Shown here: positions 46,768-60,015 of the stretch, one piece after another | Position numbering within the stretch: the first letter of the stretch is position 1 | How the letters are laid out: every line of letters starts with the position of its first letter | IMG/VR virus record: IMGVR_UViG_2627853701_000009 | Strand: one strand, 5' to 3' | DNA length: 64,000 bases | From: a virus | Lineage: Duplodnaviria; Heunggongvirae; Uroviricota; Caudoviricetes | The notes under the pieces: model-generated | Told to the model about the DNA's origin: nothing | Databases searched by the model: none | Seen by the model: only the letters and a program-made list of their open reading frames with translations | Program-made: the position numbers and the translations under genes

Positions 46768-47290
46768 TATTCCTCCCCTTTCCGGGATTTTCCTCAACAG
46801 TTGCGGGCCACGGTCCGGCCACAAGGAGAATCAAAAGAGGAGAACCGCAGCCCGCAAAACGAAAAAGGCCGCGCAGTTGCGCAGCCTTATAAACCCTGGT
46901 TAAAATCCACACGATAAAAATGACAATGCAAGTATCTCATGCTGTTGCCCGAACCCACTCGGGCTTTTTTTTGCATGTAAAAAGGCTCCTGCGATGAGAA
47001 GCCTGGATATATGCCTAATCTCTGTATACAGCATGATGCCGGGTGCCTCCCGGTGAATTCTGCAATGACCAGACAGAATCCGCAACTTGCCTATACAATA
47101 CGCAACCAAACATCTGTCATTATGCCCCGCCGCTCAGGGGGATTCATCATGCAGGATTTTTTTAACAAACGCTCAGCATGTCAGGCAACAGTCAACTGCC
47201 TGAATTGTGAGGCATTTAACATTTCACTGTCCGGTGTCTTTCCTGTAATAAAAAGCCCGCAAAAGAGAGTCAGGGCAGATAAGTGTGGTG

Positions 47291-47367
47291 TGGTGCGTTG
47301 TACTGGATTCGAACCAGTGACCGATTGCTTAGAAGGCAATTGCTCTGTCCGGCTGAGCTAACAACGC
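47291..47367 (-). tRNA. tRNA-Arg (anticodon UCU)
   Basis: Hand-folded cloverleaf: acceptor GCGTTGT/ACAACGC, D-stem GCTC/GAGC, anticodon loop CTTCTAA, T-loop TTCGAAT, encoded CCA. Confidence 0.85.
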
Positions 47368-47380
47368 AGAATACCGATAA

Positions 47381-47446
47381 TGGACCGCCACCGGGGACTC
47401 CGAATCTCGCACAGGGTGACGTTCTTTCCTGATGAGCTAGTGGCGG
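47381..47446 (-). pseudogene. Degenerate tRNA-like sequence (acceptor and D-arm recognisable, anticodon and T arms not foldable by eye)
   Basis: CCGCCAC/GTGGCGG acceptor pairing with CCA and TAGCTC D-arm start, but about 12 nt shorter than a tRNA. Confidence 0.4.
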
Positions 47447-47447
47447 T

Positions 47448-47523
47448 TGGTGGCCCTTGCTGGATTTGAACCAGCGACCTGGCGATTATGAGTCGCTCGC
47501 TCTCACCGCTGAGCTAAAGGGCC
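47448..47523 (-). tRNA. tRNA with CAU anticodon, most similar to E. coli tRNA-Ile2 (ileX type); tRNA-Met not excluded
   Basis: GGCCCTT acceptor, anticodon loop CTCATAA, T-loop TTCAAAT, CCA; close to ileX from memory. Confidence 0.8.
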
Positions 47524-51996: not shown

Positions 51997-52152
51997 TTAC
52001 TCCTCAGGTTCGTAAGCTGTGAAGACAGCGACCTCCGTCTGGCCGGTTCGGATTCGTACCTCGCAGAGGTCTTTCCTCGTTACCAGTGCCGTCACTATGA
52101 CGATTAAACAGATGACGATCAGGGCGATTAACATCGCCTTTTGCTGCTTCAT
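51997..52152 (-). CDS. hok: Hok-family type I toxin (51 aa); overlapping mok-like upstream frame extends to 52209
   Basis: MKQQKAMLIALIVICLIVIVTALVTRKDLCEVRIRTGQTEVAVFTAYEPEE, near-identical to HokD/RelF from memory; terminator hairpin about 51900-51931. Confidence 0.85.
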   Translation of the reverse strand: MKQQKAMLIALIVICLIVIVTALVTRKDLCEVRIRTGQTEVAVFTAYEPEE

Positions 52153-52487
52153 AGCCTGCTTCTCCTTGACCTTTCGGTCCGTAAGAGGCAATCTATATGT
52201 GACGAGCATATAGGGGCCTCACTTCGATTTATAGTCGGGTGGGGCTTTTATCTATCTGCCGTTGGTGTTCATGCCCGAGGCAGATAGCCTCAAGCACCCG
52301 CAGCAATCCTACTTAACTCTGCCGTTACAGCAAACCGTTTTCGCCCGATATGGGAATTCCCATATCGGAATGAATTCAGTTCACCTGGCGAGGCTTAGCG
52401 TACAATTTTTTCCGTTTTGTGAGCTGCCCCTACATGCCGCTGGCGCGGCATCCGGAAAAAGAATCCACGTCCTGAAGGACGAGGATG

Positions 52488-56368: not shown

Positions 56369-56891
56369 ACGCCCCCCTGGCAGACATTTGTTTATCTGCA
56401 AAGTAATATTGGTATTGCTGACGATACGCGTGCTTGAAAGCAATAGCTTTTTCTATAAGCTCGTCAGTCTCACGTTCCACAACAACTGGATCCGCAAAAA
56501 GCAGCCCGGACTCCACCACATCGCCATATTCTTTGTTTAACCCGGCGATCATGTACGTAATGCTTTTTCCGTCAGTAATTTCACAATACAATCTGAAATC
56601 GCTGATCCGGATAGCCTCCATAATTGCCGGAATCAGCGCCGTGAATTTGTCACGCTTATCTCTGGTGTCGATAGCTTTCCAGCGTTCGAATATCTTCACC
56701 CGGTTAACGCCCAGCGCCCGTTGATCAACCTCGCCATCATTAAACGTGACGCGTTGAACATCGATGTTCGGGCGTTCTTTCAGAGCCCAGAATGCTTCCG
56801 TGATTAATATCGTCGCCTGCTCCTGTGTCATTCCTGGTCGGCATACCCAGGTATCCAGAGCCTCACAAACCTGTTCAGTGGTGATTTTCAT
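56340..56891 (-). CDS. Hypothetical protein between cro-like gene and replication genes
   Basis: 183-aa ORF in the cII position but too long for CII. Confidence 0.4.
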   Translation of the reverse strand: MKITTEQVCEALDTWVCRPGMTQEQATILITEAFWALKERPNIDVQRVTFNDGEVDQRALGVNRVKIFERWKAIDTRDKRDKFTALIPAIMEAIRISDFRLYCEITDGKSITYMIAGLNKEYGDVVESGLLFADPVVVERETDELIEKAIAFKHAYRQQYQYYFADKQMSARGAYEYRCTTMG

Positions 56892-57102
56892 TGTTCAACC
56901 GCCCCGCCCGCTTTGCCTTACGATATTCGTCATAAACTTTGGGGTCGTACTGAAGTTCCCCGCCGGATGCCTCTTGCAGGCGCATCGCGCGACCTTCAGG
57001 AACCAGTTCCCCCCATGCAGCAACGCTTGCCAGCCTAACTCCTGCGACATTGGCAAGCTTTGTTTTGCTGCCAAAAAACGCTATAGCATCAATTTTCAAC
57101 AT
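56875..57102 (-). CDS. dicC: Cro-like repressor, DicC-type
   Basis: 75 aa, FFGSKTKLANVAGVRLASVAAW helix-turn-helix; divergent from dicA. Confidence 0.7.
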   Translation of the reverse strand: MLKIDAIAFFGSKTKLANVAGVRLASVAAWGELVPEGRAMRLQEASGGELQYDPKVYDEYRKAKRAGRLNNENHH

Positions 57103-57178: not shown

Positions 57179-57586
57179 ATGAAAAACGAAACCTTCGGTG
57201 CTCGCCTCTTATACAGGCGAAAAAAATTAAAACTGTCTCAGGCCGCATTAGGTAAGCTGGTCAAAGTGGCTCACGTAACAATTTCTCAATGGGAAAGAGA
57301 TGAAACACAGCCAGCGGGGAAGAGATTATTCGCACTGAGCCAGGCGCTTCAGTGCTCGCCGACTTGGCTTCTTTTTGGAGATGAAGATAAGCAACCAGGC
57401 GAACCGATCCCAGATAATCAGCCAGTCAATCTGACAGAAGATCAAAAAGAGTTGCTTCAACTGTTCGACGCACTGCCTGAGTCAGAGCAAAAGGCTCTGT
57501 TGTCAGAGATGCGTGCTCGAGTTGAGAATTTCAACAAACTTTTTGAAGAACTACTCAAAGCTCGCAAAAGAAGCGCAAATAAATAA
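57179..57586 (+). CDS. dicA: Prophage repressor, DicA-type (XRE helix-turn-helix, no LexA-like cleavage domain)
   Basis: 135 aa, LSQAALGKLVKVAHVTISQWERDETQP...MRARVENFNKLFEELLKARKRS; DicA-like. Confidence 0.75.
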   Translation: MKNETFGARLLYRRKKLKLSQAALGKLVKVAHVTISQWERDETQPAGKRLFALSQALQCSPTWLLFGDEDKQPGEPIPDNQPVNLTEDQKELLQLFDALPESEQKALLSEMRARVENFNKLFEELLKARKRSANK

Positions 57587-58220: not shown

Positions 58221-58439
58221 ATGCAGAAACGAGAACCCGTCATCATCGCGCCAGACTATACCGATGATGAACTTTATGAGTGGATGCACCAGAAAATTAA
58301 GGCGGTGCAGGACCTGAAATGGGCCAATGAAGCCAGGGCTAAGCAGGCTGAAAATCTGTCCGCTCTGGAGCAGGATATCACCAATCTGGAAAAAGCAGCG
58401 GCATTAAGCATTGCCAGAATGATTACATACCCACGTTAA
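58221..58439 (+). CDS. Small early-left operon protein (72 aa, YdfC-sized)
   Basis: ORF in operon orientation. Confidence 0.45.
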   Translation: MQKREPVIIAPDYTDDELYEWMHQKIKAVQDLKWANEARAKQAENLSALEQDITNLEKAAALSIARMITYPR

Positions 58440-58461: not shown

Positions 58462-58869
58462 ATGGAATTTAAAGATTTACCAACGCCATTACAGGAAATG
58501 GCATCGAATATAGTTCGTTCACAACTGGCTACTCTTGACCTTAGTACCGCAGAAAAAGAAACCATCGATAATATGGTTCGTAATGTGCGCAATGCTTTTT
58601 CTGGGCTATATGGTTCTGATAATCAAAAGCAGGAAAGCGATGTTAATAAACGGGTAATTTCTGTTTGCGTGAATGGCCATGTTCTTTCATCAATCAAAAC
58701 AGAAACGGCGACAGTCTTCGATTGCCTTTGCATTGTACAGAGCCTTGTTGATGCCCTGTTTCGTTCAGTGAATTTAGAAAATGATGCAAATCTGCGAGGG
58801 CGCATAATAGCACATCCATATGCACATACTTTAGGCTCTGTGGATATCAAAGATCCCACAAATCTTTAA
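58462..58869 (+). CDS. Hypothetical early-left operon protein (135 aa)
   Basis: ORF with RBS-like AGGCT...ATG; no homolog recalled. Confidence 0.45.
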   Translation: MEFKDLPTPLQEMASNIVRSQLATLDLSTAEKETIDNMVRNVRNAFSGLYGSDNQKQESDVNKRVISVCVNGHVLSSIKTETATVFDCLCIVQSLVDALFRSVNLENDANLRGRIIAHPYAHTLGSVDIKDPTNL

Positions 58870-59413
58870 TGAAATAGTTAACGCGAATTGTACTTGCTCT
58901 TTCGGTTGCTTTCAGAATACGCGTTGAAACTGCTGGCGGTAATTTGGTATTCCATTTATTAAAATCATGCCCGGGAAAGTACTCTTCGAAAATACTTTTA
59001 ACTGCAGACTCGCCTATTGAAATGCTGCTTACCATGCGATTTTGATAAAGGCATTTAGCAATAAGAGTTGATTTTAACATTCACCCTCCTGAGGGTTGGT
59101 AATTAAGGAGTTCTCCACGGGTGAAGTGGAGTGCGTGCGCCGGACACGGGTGAACATCCGGCACTGACAGTTTACTGAAAGGATATTTCTCTGAAAAGTC
59201 AGAGCATAACGCGAAAGCGCACGGCGAGGTTGCTGGTTCATAGATAGCCTGTCGTTAAATTTTCGTCGACCGTGCGCTTCCGGTTGTGGCACTCCGCGAA
59301 ATGGCGCAGCGGTAAGTATGGCGGGGTTATTCCTTCCCCGTTGAGGACACCGGGTTGTCAGGTTGACCATACGCTTAAGTGACAACCCCGCTGCAACGCC
59401 CTCTGTTATCAAT

Positions 59414-59466
59414 TTTCTGGTGACGTTTGGCGGCATCTGTTTGCCCATGAACTGATGTCCGCCCTT
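59414..59466 (+). ncRNA. dicF: DicF small regulatory RNA (ftsZ-targeting), with intrinsic terminator
   Basis: 5' segment TTTCTGGTGACGTTTGGCGG identical to E. coli DicF from memory; terminal hairpin GGCGGCATC...GATGTCCGCC followed by TTTTT; directly upstream of dicB. Confidence 0.8.
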
Positions 59467-59638
59467 TTTAAAGTGAATTTTGTGATGCAGTGAATGCGGC
59501 TAAGCGCACGCGGAACAGTTAAAGCTAAAAACAGTGTTATGGGTGGATTCTCTGTATCCGGCGTTAATTGTTAACTGGTTAACGTCACCTGGAGGCACCA
59601 GGCACCGCATCACAAAATTCATTGTTGAGGACGCGATA

Positions 59639-59827
59639 ATGGAAACGTTATTACCAAACGTTAATACGTCTGAAGGTTGTTTTGAAATTGGTGTCACTAT
59701 CAGTAACCCTGTATTTACTGAAGATGCCATTAACAAGAGAAAACACGAACGGGAGTTATTAAATAAAATATGCATTCTTTCAATGCTGGCCCGTTTACGT
59801 CCGATACAAAAAGGATGCTGGCAATGA
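59639..59827 (+). CDS. dicB: Cell division inhibitor DicB
   Basis: 62 aa, METLLPNVNTSEGCFEIGVTISNPVFTEDAINKRKHERELLNKICILSMLARL..., near-identical to K-12 DicB from memory. Confidence 0.85.
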   Translation: METLLPNVNTSEGCFEIGVTISNPVFTEDAINKRKHERELLNKICILSMLARLRPIQKGCWQ

Positions 59828-60015
59828 ATACAGCATTTGCACTTGTTCTGACAGTTTTTCTTGTTTCCGGAGAGCCAGTTGATATTGCAGTCAGTGTTCA
59901 CAGGACAATGCAGGAGTGTGTGACTGCAGCAACCGAACAGAAAATTCCCGGTAACTGTTACCCCGTCGATAAAGTTATTCACCAGGATAATAACGAAATC
60001 CCGGCAGGTCTTTAA
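59824..60015 (+). CDS. ydfD: YdfD-like small membrane protein (Qin lysis-associated)
   Basis: 63 aa, MNTAFALVLTVFLVSGEPVDIAVSVHRTMQECVTAATEQKIPGNCYPVDK; ATGA overlap with dicB stop. Confidence 0.7.
   Translation: MNTAFALVLTVFLVSGEPVDIAVSVHRTMQECVTAATEQKIPGNCYPVDKVIHQDNNEIPAGL

What the first reader, a model, noticed from the sequence alone, without database searches (positions are those of the whole stretch)
59081..60015. DicF sRNA, dicB and ydfD module preceded by a long structured untranslated region
The early-left operon carries the Qin-type division-inhibition cassette. The 330 nt upstream of DicF (59081-59413) has no convincing ORF on the operon strand but is dense in stem-loops (for example GCCGGACACGGGTGAACATCCGGC, AAGCGCACGG...CCGTGCGCTT, GGGTTGTCA...TGACAACCC), suggesting a processed precursor or additional RNA element.
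Basis: partly seen in the sequence, partly recalled or inferred. Interest (0 to 1): 0.55.

Follow-up and report, generated by a model that had tools for sequence, protein, structure and literature searches.

The report
Conserved structured RNA preceding DicF sRNA
This stretch is the already known untranslated leader of the prophage small RNA DicF, but its last 115 bases form a conserved, intricately folded RNA domain, shared by lambda-like and P1-like phages and always placed just before a small-RNA terminator, whose function nobody has described.

Summary
Window 59081-60015 is a Qin-type dicBF cassette. It contains a DicF allele (59414-69), dicB (59639-59827) and ydfD/DUF1482 (59824-60015). 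These are preceded by the non-coding ydfC-dicF spacer, which is about 96% identical to E. coli K-12 and which the literature calls a "long untranslated region". The spacer folds better than shuffles (z -3.5).

Only its 3' third carries comparative support. Positions 59283-59397 form a four-way junction plus a pseudoknot. The domain is not in Rfam 15. It is conserved at 75-99% in lambdoid phages with different repressors and in P1/P7, where it lies just after Pban and is annotated "dicF-like region". Compensatory changes occur in five of six helices.

In 119 of 121 loci an intrinsic terminator follows within 52-98 nt. That terminator belongs to one of at least nine different sRNA alleles. The 5' two-thirds of the spacer is conserved but shows no covariation.

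My best reading is a cis-acting 5' scaffold of a modular phage sRNA cassette that sets up RNase E processing; this is inferred, at about 0.4. The rivals are control of read-through at the sRNA terminator (put/EAR-like or switch-like), an autonomous RNA function, and passive insulation. The cassette is known and the domain is undescribed, so interest is moderate.

The parts
59081..59281 (+). 5' two-thirds of the ydfC-dicF untranslated spacer. It holds the hairpin 59139-59162 and the long-range helix 59205-59214/59270-59279. It is mosaic among prophages.
   Evidence: About 96% identical to the K-12 spacer. Other phages share only sub-blocks of it and replace its inner hairpins. RNAalifold on 43 variants gives 38 pairs with 0 compensatory changes and a covariation term of +0.16. 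No promoter-like site on either strand.
59283..59397 (+). Conserved ~115-nt RNA domain, a four-way junction with a pseudoknot. P1 59283-90/59390-97; P2 59294-98/59305-09; P3 59310-13/59349-52; P4 59322-26/59336-40 with a CU-rich loop; P5 59353-60/59380-87. The pseudoknot pairs 59316-21 (GUAUGG) with 59367-72 (CCAUAC, in the P5 loop).
   Evidence: Covariance model R1 scores 137.6 bits here and finds a single copy in the window. 94.5% of cells are paired, against 30-55% with slid partners. Ten pairs change on both sides, against 4.4 in shuffles. The MFE of the isolated domain gives the same topology. No Rfam family matches at E<=10.
59398..59413 (+). Single-stranded A/U-rich linker (GCCCUCUGUUAUCAAU). 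It ends where the 5' end of DicF is made.
   Evidence: Identical to K-12. RNase E dependence of the DicF 5' end comes from the literature and was not tested here.
59414..59469 (+). DicF allele: a seed identical to K-12, a variant terminator hairpin, and a U5 tail.
   Evidence: Rfam DicF 43.5 bits, E 4.8e-8, below the gathering score of 48. Aligned with K-12. Hairpin dG -16.5 kcal/mol.
59470..59622 (+). STnc100-like structured spacer between DicF and dicB. It is closed by a 16-bp duplex (59471-88 with 59603-20), the plausible RNase III site.
   Evidence: Rfam STnc100 32.5 bits, E 3.8e-5, below the gathering score of 47. Duplex energy -23.2 kcal/mol. The 72-nt RNase III form of DicF comes from the literature.
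59639..59827 (+). dicB (62 aa), a cell-division inhibitor.
   Evidence: Pfam PF05358, 1.7e-37, full length. RefSeq annotation of the identical O157 locus agrees.
59824..60015 (+). ydfD (63 aa, DUF1482).
   Evidence: Pfam PF07358, 3.7e-25.
58462..59080 (.). Insertion relative to K-12 between ydfC and the spacer: a 135-aa ORF (58462-58869, +) and a 77-aa ORF (58847-59080, -) with a strong Shine-Dalgarno sequence.
   Evidence: K-12 lacks this segment. The ORFs match PHROG families 1363 and 10348, both of unknown function. Other prophages carry different minus-strand ORFs at the same junction.

Best explanation
Positions 59081-59413 are the non-coding ydfC-dicF spacer of the dicBF operon, that is, the 5' part of the DicF precursor transcript.

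Its 3' third (59283-59397) is a distinct, mobile RNA domain. It is a four-way junction tied together by a pseudoknot between the strand after P3 and the P5 loop. I read it as the conserved 5' scaffold of a modular phage sRNA cassette: scaffold, then a short single-stranded linker or seed, then a GGCGG/CCGCC terminator with a U tail.

Proposed mechanism (inferred):
1. The scaffold folds as soon as it is transcribed.
2. It separates the sRNA module from whatever lies upstream.
3. It holds the A/U-rich linker single-stranded next to a rigid structure, so that RNase E cuts at a fixed place and releases the Hfq-type sRNA. Transcripts that read through the terminator go on to dicB and ydfD.

Shown here: the identity of the locus, the absence of coding potential, the conserved fold, the strand, and the invariable adjacency to a terminator. 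Taken from the literature: the RNase E, RNase III and termination ends of DicF. Inferred: that the scaffold is what directs the processing.
For: Identity:
- 96% identical to the K-12 spacer.
- Described in the literature as the long untranslated region containing dicF, with an RNase E-made 5' end.

A selected RNA domain:
- Similarity between lambdoid phages and P1/P7 is confined to this ~100 nt. The flanks are unrelated.
- Compensatory or wobble changes keep P1, P3, P4, P5 and the pseudoknot.
- P1-type phages replace the closing helix by a different one, AGCUGUUA/UAAC(G)AGCU. A U-to-A change restores a pair in an E. albertii plasmid.
- G-U pairs fit only the + strand.
- Loop-length changes of 1, 2 and 4 nt exclude a reading frame.

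Cassette design:
- 119 of 121 loci have an intrinsic terminator 52-98 nt after P5.
- There are at least nine different linker/hairpin alleles. The pPE4, F1055 and Ayreon alleles get no Rfam DicF match at E<=0.1, and neither does P1 at E<=10.
- The orientation always matches the repressor-controlled operon: DicA-type, cI-type, or C1/Op72 in P1.

Precedents, from the literature and my own knowledge:
- Stem-loops direct precise RNase E processing of MicL (cited).
- The structured body of GlmZ recruits RapZ and RNase E.
- STnc100/PasD are prophage sRNAs with a shared scaffold and different seeds.
Against: - No experiment or data set examined here links the domain to RNase E cleavage.
- In the Ayreon and P1 alleles the linker between the domain and the terminator is only 8-20 nt and not clearly A/U-rich. 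A processed product there would have little seed.
- ST64B and D6 carry the same sRNA/terminator modules behind a different, STnc100-like structured element. The domain is therefore not indispensable for those sRNAs.
- Near-invariant loop sequences and a pseudoknot are more than a simple processing guide should need.
- Independent compensatory events are few, roughly 6-8, and most separate only two clades.
- P2 has no covariation, and the window's own copy has a C-A mismatch in it.
- The thermodynamic z-score of the isolated domain is only -1.5.
Confidence: 0.4

Rival explanations
1. Cis-acting control of transcription at the sRNA terminator. The folded domain acts on the elongating RNA polymerase, as HK022 put or Bacillus EAR do, or it switches conformation in response to a factor or ligand. 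Either way it sets how much transcription stops at the sRNA terminator and how much reads through into dicB/ydfD. In P1 the read-through would reach the tRNA genes and ban.
For: - The domain always lies 52-98 nt before a strong intrinsic terminator that downstream genes must pass.
- In P1/P7 it starts about 25-35 nt after the Pban start and is followed at once by a terminator. This is the promoter-element-terminator layout of putL.
- No N-like antiterminator was recognised among the early-left ORFs of the window or of Ayreon.
- A four-way junction with a pseudoknot and invariant loops is typical of RNAs that bind a specific partner.
Against: - Model R1 finds nothing in the HK022 putL/putR regions.
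- There is one copy per phage and no rightward-operon partner in the 64-kb window.
- Inspection by eye found no conserved alternative pairing between the domain and the terminator arms. The alternative helix seen in the window's MFE is not possible in the Ayreon type.
- DicF is known to be produced partly by termination at this very terminator.
Confidence: 0.22
2. An RNA with a function of its own. One possibility is a tRNA-like cloverleaf used as a processing or decoy signal. Another is a regulator that uses its CU-rich P4 loop, which resembles the anti-Shine-Dalgarno sequence, on purine-rich ribosome-binding sites. It would work either as a stable processed species or as the 5' domain of a ~190-nt sRNA.
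For: - The domain has cloverleaf topology with no or short junction linkers.
- There is a faint match to the tRNA-like mascRNA model (E 9.2).
- The P4 stem covaries while its loop stays CU-rich in every lineage.
- GUUGAGGAC occurs exactly twice in the window, once in the domain (59340) and once at the dicB ribosome-binding site (59624).
- In P1 the start-to-terminator transcript would be about 190 nt.
Against: - ARAGORN finds no tRNA, and Rfam gives no tRNA or C4 match at E<=10.
- Ayreon carries a genuine C4/isrK pair elsewhere, so this domain is a different thing.
- The stretch that resembles the dicB ribosome-binding site is replaced in other lineages that keep dicB.
- No complementary target for the P5 loop exists in the window.
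Confidence: 0.15
3. No specific activity. In this reading the structure only protects a 560-nt untranslated stretch from Rho and nucleases. Alternatively, the segment persists as a conserved linker at which mosaic phages recombine.
For: - The whole spacer is unusually stable.
- Module boundaries coincide with the ends of the domain, at the joint CYRCAAC.
- Natural deletion variants lack the 5' strand of P1 (L021 and L069).
- The 5' two-thirds shows no covariation.
Against: - Compensatory changes and strand-specific G-U pairs indicate selection on a particular fold rather than on generic stability or on the DNA.
- The loops are nearly invariant across clades whose flanks share nothing.
Confidence: 0.18
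4. A protein-coding gene on the minus strand (124 aa in the window), as a few phage records annotate.
For: An open minus-strand frame exists in the window. Hypothetical proteins are called there in Evi, pPE4, F1055 and Ayreon.
Against: - No Pfam or PHROG match.
- The frame is interrupted in 10 of 34 variants, and loop indels are not multiples of three.
- PGAP calls nothing in E. coli genomes.
- The ORF overlaps DicF itself.
Confidence: 0.02

Closest known systems
ydfC-dicF untranslated region of the dicBF operon, Qin prophage, E. coli K-12
   Same: It is the same sequence (about 96% identical), in the same position and orientation, with the same DicF seed, dicB and ydfD. RNase E, RNase III and termination processing are documented for it.
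   Different: The window has a 620-bp insertion with two extra ORFs after ydfC. Its DicF allele has a different hairpin interior. It also has a G-to-A change in P2. The papers I could read do not describe the folded domain.
P1/P7 'dicF-like region' downstream of Pban (a misc_feature in NC_005856)
   Same: It holds the same ~115-nt domain at 76-81% identity. P3, P4, P5 and the pseudoknot are kept through compensatory changes, and a terminator follows.
   Different: - The closing helix and the terminator are different, and the downstream genes are tRNAs, tciABC and ban.
- The Rfam DicF model does not match it. The resemblance is to the domain upstream of dicF, not to DicF itself.
HK022 putL/putR and Bacillus EAR (cis-acting antiterminator RNAs)
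   Same: All are structured RNAs of 70-120 nt in an early or long operon, upstream of terminators, in phages lacking an N protein.
   Different: There is no sequence or model similarity. This domain is a four-way junction rather than two stem-loops. It occurs once per phage. No activity has been tested.
STnc100 / PasD family of prophage sRNAs (RF02076)
   Same: The design is the same: a large conserved structured 5' body, then a variable seed, then a terminator. An STnc100-like element takes this domain's place upstream of the same sRNA modules in ST64B and D6. One also follows DicF in the window.
   Different: The fold and the sequence are different.
P1 c4 / P4 CI / isrK processed antisense RNAs (RF01695, RF01394)
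   Same: They are small structured RNAs cut out of the leader of a repressor-controlled phage operon.
   Different: There is no match to either model. Ayreon has true C4 and isrK elsewhere. No target repeats were found.
Structure-guided RNase E processing of MicL and GlmZ
   Same: A structured element sits next to a single-stranded RNase E site and defines an sRNA end.
   Different: The likeness is an analogy only. Nothing was tested here.

Membership tests
DicF (Rfam RF00039) | Score at or above the family's gathering threshold (48 bits). | tested here: not met
   43.5 bits, E 4.8e-8 at 59415-59464. It was absent from the gathering-threshold scan.
DicF (Rfam RF00039) | The K-12 seed sequence and a GGCGG/CCGCC terminator with a U tail, located between ydfC and dicB. 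| tested here: met
   The first 20 nt and both hairpin arms are identical to K-12; only the interior of the hairpin differs. The context is ydfC ... dicB ydfD.
DicB (Pfam PF05358) | Full-length match above the curated cut-off. | tested here: met
   127.4 bits against a cut-off of 27, residues 1-62 of 62.
YdfD / DUF1482 (Pfam PF07358) | Match above the curated cut-off. | tested here: met
   88 bits against a cut-off of 25.
put-type antiterminator RNA (HK022) | Sequence or structure related to putL/putR (two stem-loops, about 70 nt). | tested here: not met
   Model R1 gives no hit at E<=10 in the HK022 loci that hold putL and putR. The fold here is a four-way junction.
put-type antiterminator RNA (HK022) | Two copies per phage, one in each early operon. 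| tested here: not met
   There is a single copy in the 64-kb window and in each phage locus searched.
put-type antiterminator RNA (HK022) | Lies between an early promoter and the first terminator, and suppresses termination in cis. | tested here: inconclusive
   The position fits. The activity cannot be tested with these tools.
Transcriptional riboswitch | A conserved aptamer-like fold followed by a terminator, with a mutually exclusive antiterminator pairing. | tested here: inconclusive
   The fold and the adjacent terminator are present. Inspection of the alleles found no alternative pairing conserved across them. A ligand cannot be tested.
tRNA / tRNA-like element | Recognised by tRNA models. 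| tested here: not met
   ARAGORN finds none. Rfam gives no tRNA match at E<=10. Only the cloverleaf topology and a chance-level mascRNA hit (E 9.2) point that way.
C4 antisense RNA / isrK (RF01695, RF01394) | A match to the family model. | tested here: not met
   No match in the window region or on the P1 element. The genuine family members in Ayreon lie elsewhere.
STnc100 (RF02076), for 59453-59658 only | Score at or above the gathering threshold (47 bits). | tested here: not met
   32.5 bits, E 3.8e-5, full model length. It is related but divergent.

The most novel reading that the evidence does not exclude
The 115-nt four-way-junction RNA may be a new class of phage cis-regulatory element. 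It would act on RNA polymerase, or sense a cellular factor, to gate read-through of the early sRNA terminator. On this reading it decides between making only the sRNA and switching on the division inhibitors DicB/YdfD, or in P1 the tRNA-ban operon. It would be an RNA-only alternative to N-type antitermination, shared by lambdoid and P1-type phages.
Probability: 0.2. Interest if true: 0.75.

Novelty: new variant of a known kind. Interest (0 to 1): 0.45.

Why it matters
DicF is one of the oldest known bacterial sRNAs. It contributes to control of cell division, metabolism and EHEC virulence, and about three quarters of complete E. coli genomes carry this spacer, with up to seven copies per genome.

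Three consequences would follow if the conserved upstream domain governs how DicF-type sRNAs are made, or whether transcription continues into the toxic dicB/ydfD genes:
- It would explain how a whole family of phage sRNAs with different seeds is expressed from one common chassis.
- It would give a handle on a silent, toxic operon.
- It would add an RNA family that current databases lack.

If the domain is only a passive scaffold, the finding is a well-characterised locus with a tidier annotation.

Tried and rejected
1. put-like antiterminator as a homologue. I read the HK022 putL/putR sequences and searched them with model R1. There was no similarity, and the window has no second copy. This is kept only as a functional analogy.
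2. tRNA or tRNA pseudogene. ARAGORN and Rfam were negative.
3. C4/isrK-type processed antisense RNA. Rfam was negative, and a genuine C4/isrK pair lies elsewhere in Ayreon.
4. RfaH ops site. GGCGGUAAG resembles GGCGGTAG. I rejected this by reasoning: P7 has C at the critical T, and that position covaries as an RNA base pair in P3.
5. boxA/nut-like sequence in the conserved UGUCGUUAAAUUU of the 5' part. Only 6 of 13 positions match, judged by eye, so I dropped it.
6. Pseudoknot between the P4 loop and the following GAGGA stretch. It is possible in several lineages but not in P1 or L128. It was not consistent enough to claim.
7. Alternative closing helix GCGCAGCG/CGCUGC seen in the window's MFE. 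It is not possible in the Ayreon-type sequences.
8. Scan of genome contigs with a 15-base pattern. It was swamped by chance matches and only E. albertii was real.
9. Scan for variants with a changed pseudoknot position. All 120 rows were chance matches, so it was uninformative.
10. BLAST walks outward from the P1 and F1055 versions. They found no members beyond Escherichia, Salmonella, Shigella, Klebsiella plasmids and one phage labelled Actinobacillus.
11. Several key papers were not held in the library: Faubladier 1990 and 1994, Lobocka 2004, Murashko 2017.
Full report
**What is there.** The window around the finding is the immunity and early-left region of a lambdoid prophage of the Qin/DicA type.
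- A DicC-like gene lies at 56875-57102 (-) and a DicA-like gene at 57179-57586 (+).
- Then come a 99-aa ORF, ydfC (58221-58439), a 135-aa ORF (58462-58869) and a 77-aa ORF on the opposite strand (58847-59080).
- Then come 333 nt without a credible ORF, DicF, dicB and ydfD, and an 823-aa exonuclease gene.
- dicB (59639-59827) matches Pfam DicB at 1.7e-37. ydfD (59824-60015) matches DUF1482 at 3.7e-25.
- DicF is found by Rfam at 59415-59464 with 43.5 bits (E 4.8e-8). That is under the gathering score of 48, so the default scan missed it. The seed and both hairpin arms are identical to K-12 DicF; only the interior of the hairpin differs.
- Identical copies of the 333 nt occur in O157:H7 and O121 genomes. 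4082 of 5426 complete E. coli genomes carry a match, with up to seven copies each. RefSeq annotates nothing under it.

- The three quoted stem-loops are present at 59139-59162, at 59205-14/59270-79 and at 59352-60/59380-88.
- The 333 nt fold 18 kcal/mol better than dinucleotide shuffles (z -3.47, 0 of 100 shuffles as stable).
- The reverse strand is nearly as stable (z -3.0), so energy alone does not give the strand.
- The operon strand has only 30-36 aa GTG/TTG ORFs.
- The 124-aa minus-strand ORF has no Pfam or PHROG relative and is not conserved as a frame.

**It is a known region.**
- The stretch aligns with the ydfC-dicF spacer of K-12 at about 96% identity from 59095 onward.
- Relative to K-12, the window has an extra 620 bp with two ORFs between ydfC and the spacer.
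- Balasubramanian et al. [quoted passage not shown] They state that the 5' end of DicF is made by RNase E. The 53-nt form ends at the Rho-independent terminator, and a 72-nt form is made by RNase III from the read-through transcript (PMC5069750).
- Ponath et al. 2022 treat DicF as the first sRNA recognised to derive from a 3' UTR (PMC9438474).
- None of the papers I could read describes a structure in the spacer.

**The spacer is modular, and one module stands out.**
- Phage genomes match different sub-blocks of the 333 nt: positions 1-95, 1-208, 114-333 and 203-325.
- The block at about 203-325 recurs in lambdoid phages with unrelated repressors: Ayreon, 2H10, cdtI, Stx2c phages, Salmonella F1055 and pPE4.
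- It also recurs at 76-81% identity in P1 and P7 and in about 500 P1-type plasmids.
- In P1 it starts about 30 nt after the -10 box of P1ban, which overlaps operator Op72. The record labels it "dicF-like region".
- The Rfam DicF model does not match P1. The resemblance is to this upstream block, not to DicF.

**Structure of the block (59283-59397).** I collected 69 distinct versions, mainly from IMG/VR. I aligned 30-34 representatives (A2-A4), built covariance model R1 and counted pairs.
- The model is a four-way junction. P1 is the closing helix of 8 bp. P2 has 5 bp. P3 and P4 form one arm with an internal loop, and P4 is capped by a CU-rich loop. P5 has 8-9 bp with a 19-nt loop.
- A 6-bp pseudoknot joins GUAUGG, between P3 and P4, to CCAUAC in the P5 loop.
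- On alignment A4, 94.5% of cells are paired, against 30-55% when partners are slid by 1-3 columns. Ten pairs change on both sides, against 4.4 +/- 1.5 in column shuffles. No shuffle in 500 reaches the observed covariation score.

I derived the structure from these sequences, and they fall into a few lineages, so I recounted by hand.
- P1: C-G becomes U-A in the Ayreon/F1055 lineage, and two positions alternate between G-U and Watson-Crick pairs.
- P3: U-A becomes C-G in P7, with one U-G intermediate.
- Pseudoknot: U-A becomes C-G in P1, with three U-G intermediates and never C-A.
- P4: the second pair is G-C, A-U, C-G or U-A in different lineages, and whole stems are replaced, for example CAGGUG/CACCUG.
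- P5: U-A becomes C-G in all P1-type sequences.
- P2: it never covaries, and the window's own copy has a C-A mismatch in it.
- P1-type phages close the junction with a different helix, AGCUGUUA/UAAC(G)AGCU. An E. albertii plasmid repairs its one mismatch.

That amounts to roughly 6-8 independent events, which is good but not overwhelming evidence.
- The G-U pairs are valid only on the + strand, so the selected molecule is the sense RNA of the operon.
- Loop-length differences of +1, +2, +4 and -2 nt rule out a reading frame.
- The MFE of the isolated window sequence has the same topology, but its z-score is only -1.5.
- No Rfam 15 family matches at E<=10, including tRNA, C4, isrK and the ribozymes. 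ARAGORN finds no tRNA.
- R1 finds one copy in the window and none in the HK022, ST64B or D6 loci.

**The rest of the spacer.** For 59081-59281 I aligned 43 variants (A5). None has a compensatory change, and the covariation term is +0.16. Changes are one-sided, some giving U-G and some giving mismatches. Inner hairpins are swapped wholesale between prophages. This part is conserved and stable, but comparative data neither support nor refute its fold.

**What always accompanies the domain.**
- In 119 of 121 loci with enough sequence, a hairpin followed by at least five U lies 52-98 nt after P5. The two exceptions have a hairpin with a weaker U run, outside the finder's criteria.
- These downstream modules fall into at least nine alleles. 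They differ in linker or seed and in hairpin interior, but mostly keep GGCGG/CCGCC arms and a U-rich stretch just before the hairpin.
- The pPE4, F1055 and Ayreon alleles are not recognised as DicF by Rfam.
- The picture is a conserved scaffold joined, at a recurrent joint CYRCAAC, to interchangeable Hfq-type sRNA modules.
- ST64B and D6 carry the F1055-type and P1-type modules respectively behind a different structured element related to STnc100.
- The window has such an STnc100-like element after DicF (59453-59658, 32.5 bits). A 16-bp duplex closes it (59471-88 with 59603-20, -23 kcal/mol). It sits at the right place for the RNase III cut that yields the 72-nt DicF.
- Zhu, Shabalina and Storz (bioRxiv 2026) describe the same logic for STnc100/PasD: a shared structure with different seeds.

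**How it most likely works.** I commit to the following, at about 0.4.
- The domain is the cis-acting 5' scaffold of the cassette.
- It folds co-transcriptionally and isolates the sRNA from upstream RNA.
- It presents the 16-nt A/U-rich linker (59398-59413) for RNase E, which makes the DicF 5' end.
- Transcripts that pass the terminator continue to dicB and ydfD and are trimmed by RNase III.
- The processing enzymes come from the literature. The role of the domain is inferred from its invariable adjacency, its orientation and its conservation, and from the MicL and GlmZ precedents.
- Weaknesses: the linkers are short and not A/U-rich in the Ayreon and P1 alleles. Another element replaces the domain in ST64B and D6. 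The invariant loops and the pseudoknot suggest a specific partner.

**Rivals.**
- Control of read-through at the sRNA terminator, put/EAR-like or switch-like (0.22). The promoter-element-terminator layout in P1 fits, and no N-like protein was recognised. Against it, there is no similarity to put, no second copy, and no conserved alternative pairing.
- An autonomous RNA (0.15). The evidence is the cloverleaf topology, the anti-Shine-Dalgarno-like CU-rich P4 loop, and the 9-mer GUUGAGGAC shared with the dicB ribosome-binding site. That 9-mer is lost in lineages that keep dicB.
- Passive insulation or a recombination linker (0.18).
- A minus-strand gene (0.02).

**Novelty and verdict.** The cassette and its untranslated leader are textbook material. 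The new element is the recognition of a discrete RNA domain supported by covariation. Lambdoid and P1-type phages share it, Rfam lacks it, and it is coupled to a family of sRNA alleles. I rate the finding a new variant of a known kind, a structured cis-element of an sRNA precursor, with interest 0.45. I put the chance that it is a new class of transcription- or processing-control RNA at about 0.2.

Noticed in passing
window 58462-59080: Relative to K-12, two ORFs are inserted between ydfC and the spacer. One is 135 aa on the + strand. The other is 77 aa on the - strand, with a strong GGAGGG Shine-Dalgarno sequence abutting the spacer. Both belong to PHROG families of unknown function. Other prophages carry different minus-strand ORFs at exactly this junction, reusing the same Shine-Dalgarno sequence (CCCTCAGGAGGGTGAAATG on the minus strand). 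This looks like a moron insertion site whose promoter would lie inside the spacer.
   Followed up: partly
window 59453-59658: The spacer between DicF and dicB is a divergent STnc100-like element (32.5 bits, below the gathering score). A 16-bp duplex closes it (59471-88 with 59603-20). This is a plausible substrate for the RNase III cut that gives the 72-nt DicF.
   Followed up: partly
window 59340-59348 and 59624-59632: The 9-mer GTTGAGGAC occurs only twice in the 64-kb window. One copy is in the junction strand after P4 of the conserved domain. The other is at the dicB ribosome-binding site. About 0.5 occurrences are expected by chance in the whole window.
   Followed up: partly
window 59434-59458: This DicF allele, which recurs in other loci (e.g. 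L021), differs from K-12 in the interior of the terminator hairpin and is 2 nt shorter. The published ftsZ pairing uses the 3' part of DicF, so target range may differ between copies.
   Followed up: no
window 46912-47523 and 52150-52299: Other prophage RNAs lie in the window: a full STnc100 (46973-47181, -, 175 bits), AgvB (46912-46971, +), two tRNAs (47294-47367 and 47451-47523, -), and a sok antitoxin RNA (52150-52299, -).
   Followed up: no
L008 (PP818812.1, 'Actinobacillus phage vB_Apl-pPE4') 2560-2740: The sRNA module after the domain is tandemly duplicated, from CCCCGCCACAAC through the terminator to AAAGTGAATTTTGTGAT, twice. The whole early region looks like an E. coli DicA-type phage, so the stated host is surprising.
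   Followed up: no
L253 (ST64B) 2389-2600; L254 (D6) 2240-2530: The sRNA/terminator modules found after the domain in F1055 and P1 are here preceded by an STnc100-like element instead. The join is at the same CYRCAAC motif. This suggests that structured 5' modules are interchangeable.
   Followed up: partly
L010 (phage Ayreon) 40-228, minus strand: A genuine C4 antisense RNA (80.7 bits) and isrK (58.9 bits) lie under a CDS annotated 'immunity region'.
   Followed up: no
window 59191-59196 versus 59284-59289: RNAalifold pairs CAUAAC upstream with GUUGUG, which is the 5' strand of the domain's closing helix. This would compete with P1 in Qin-type copies. Both partners are invariant, so the pairing cannot be judged.
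   Followed up: no
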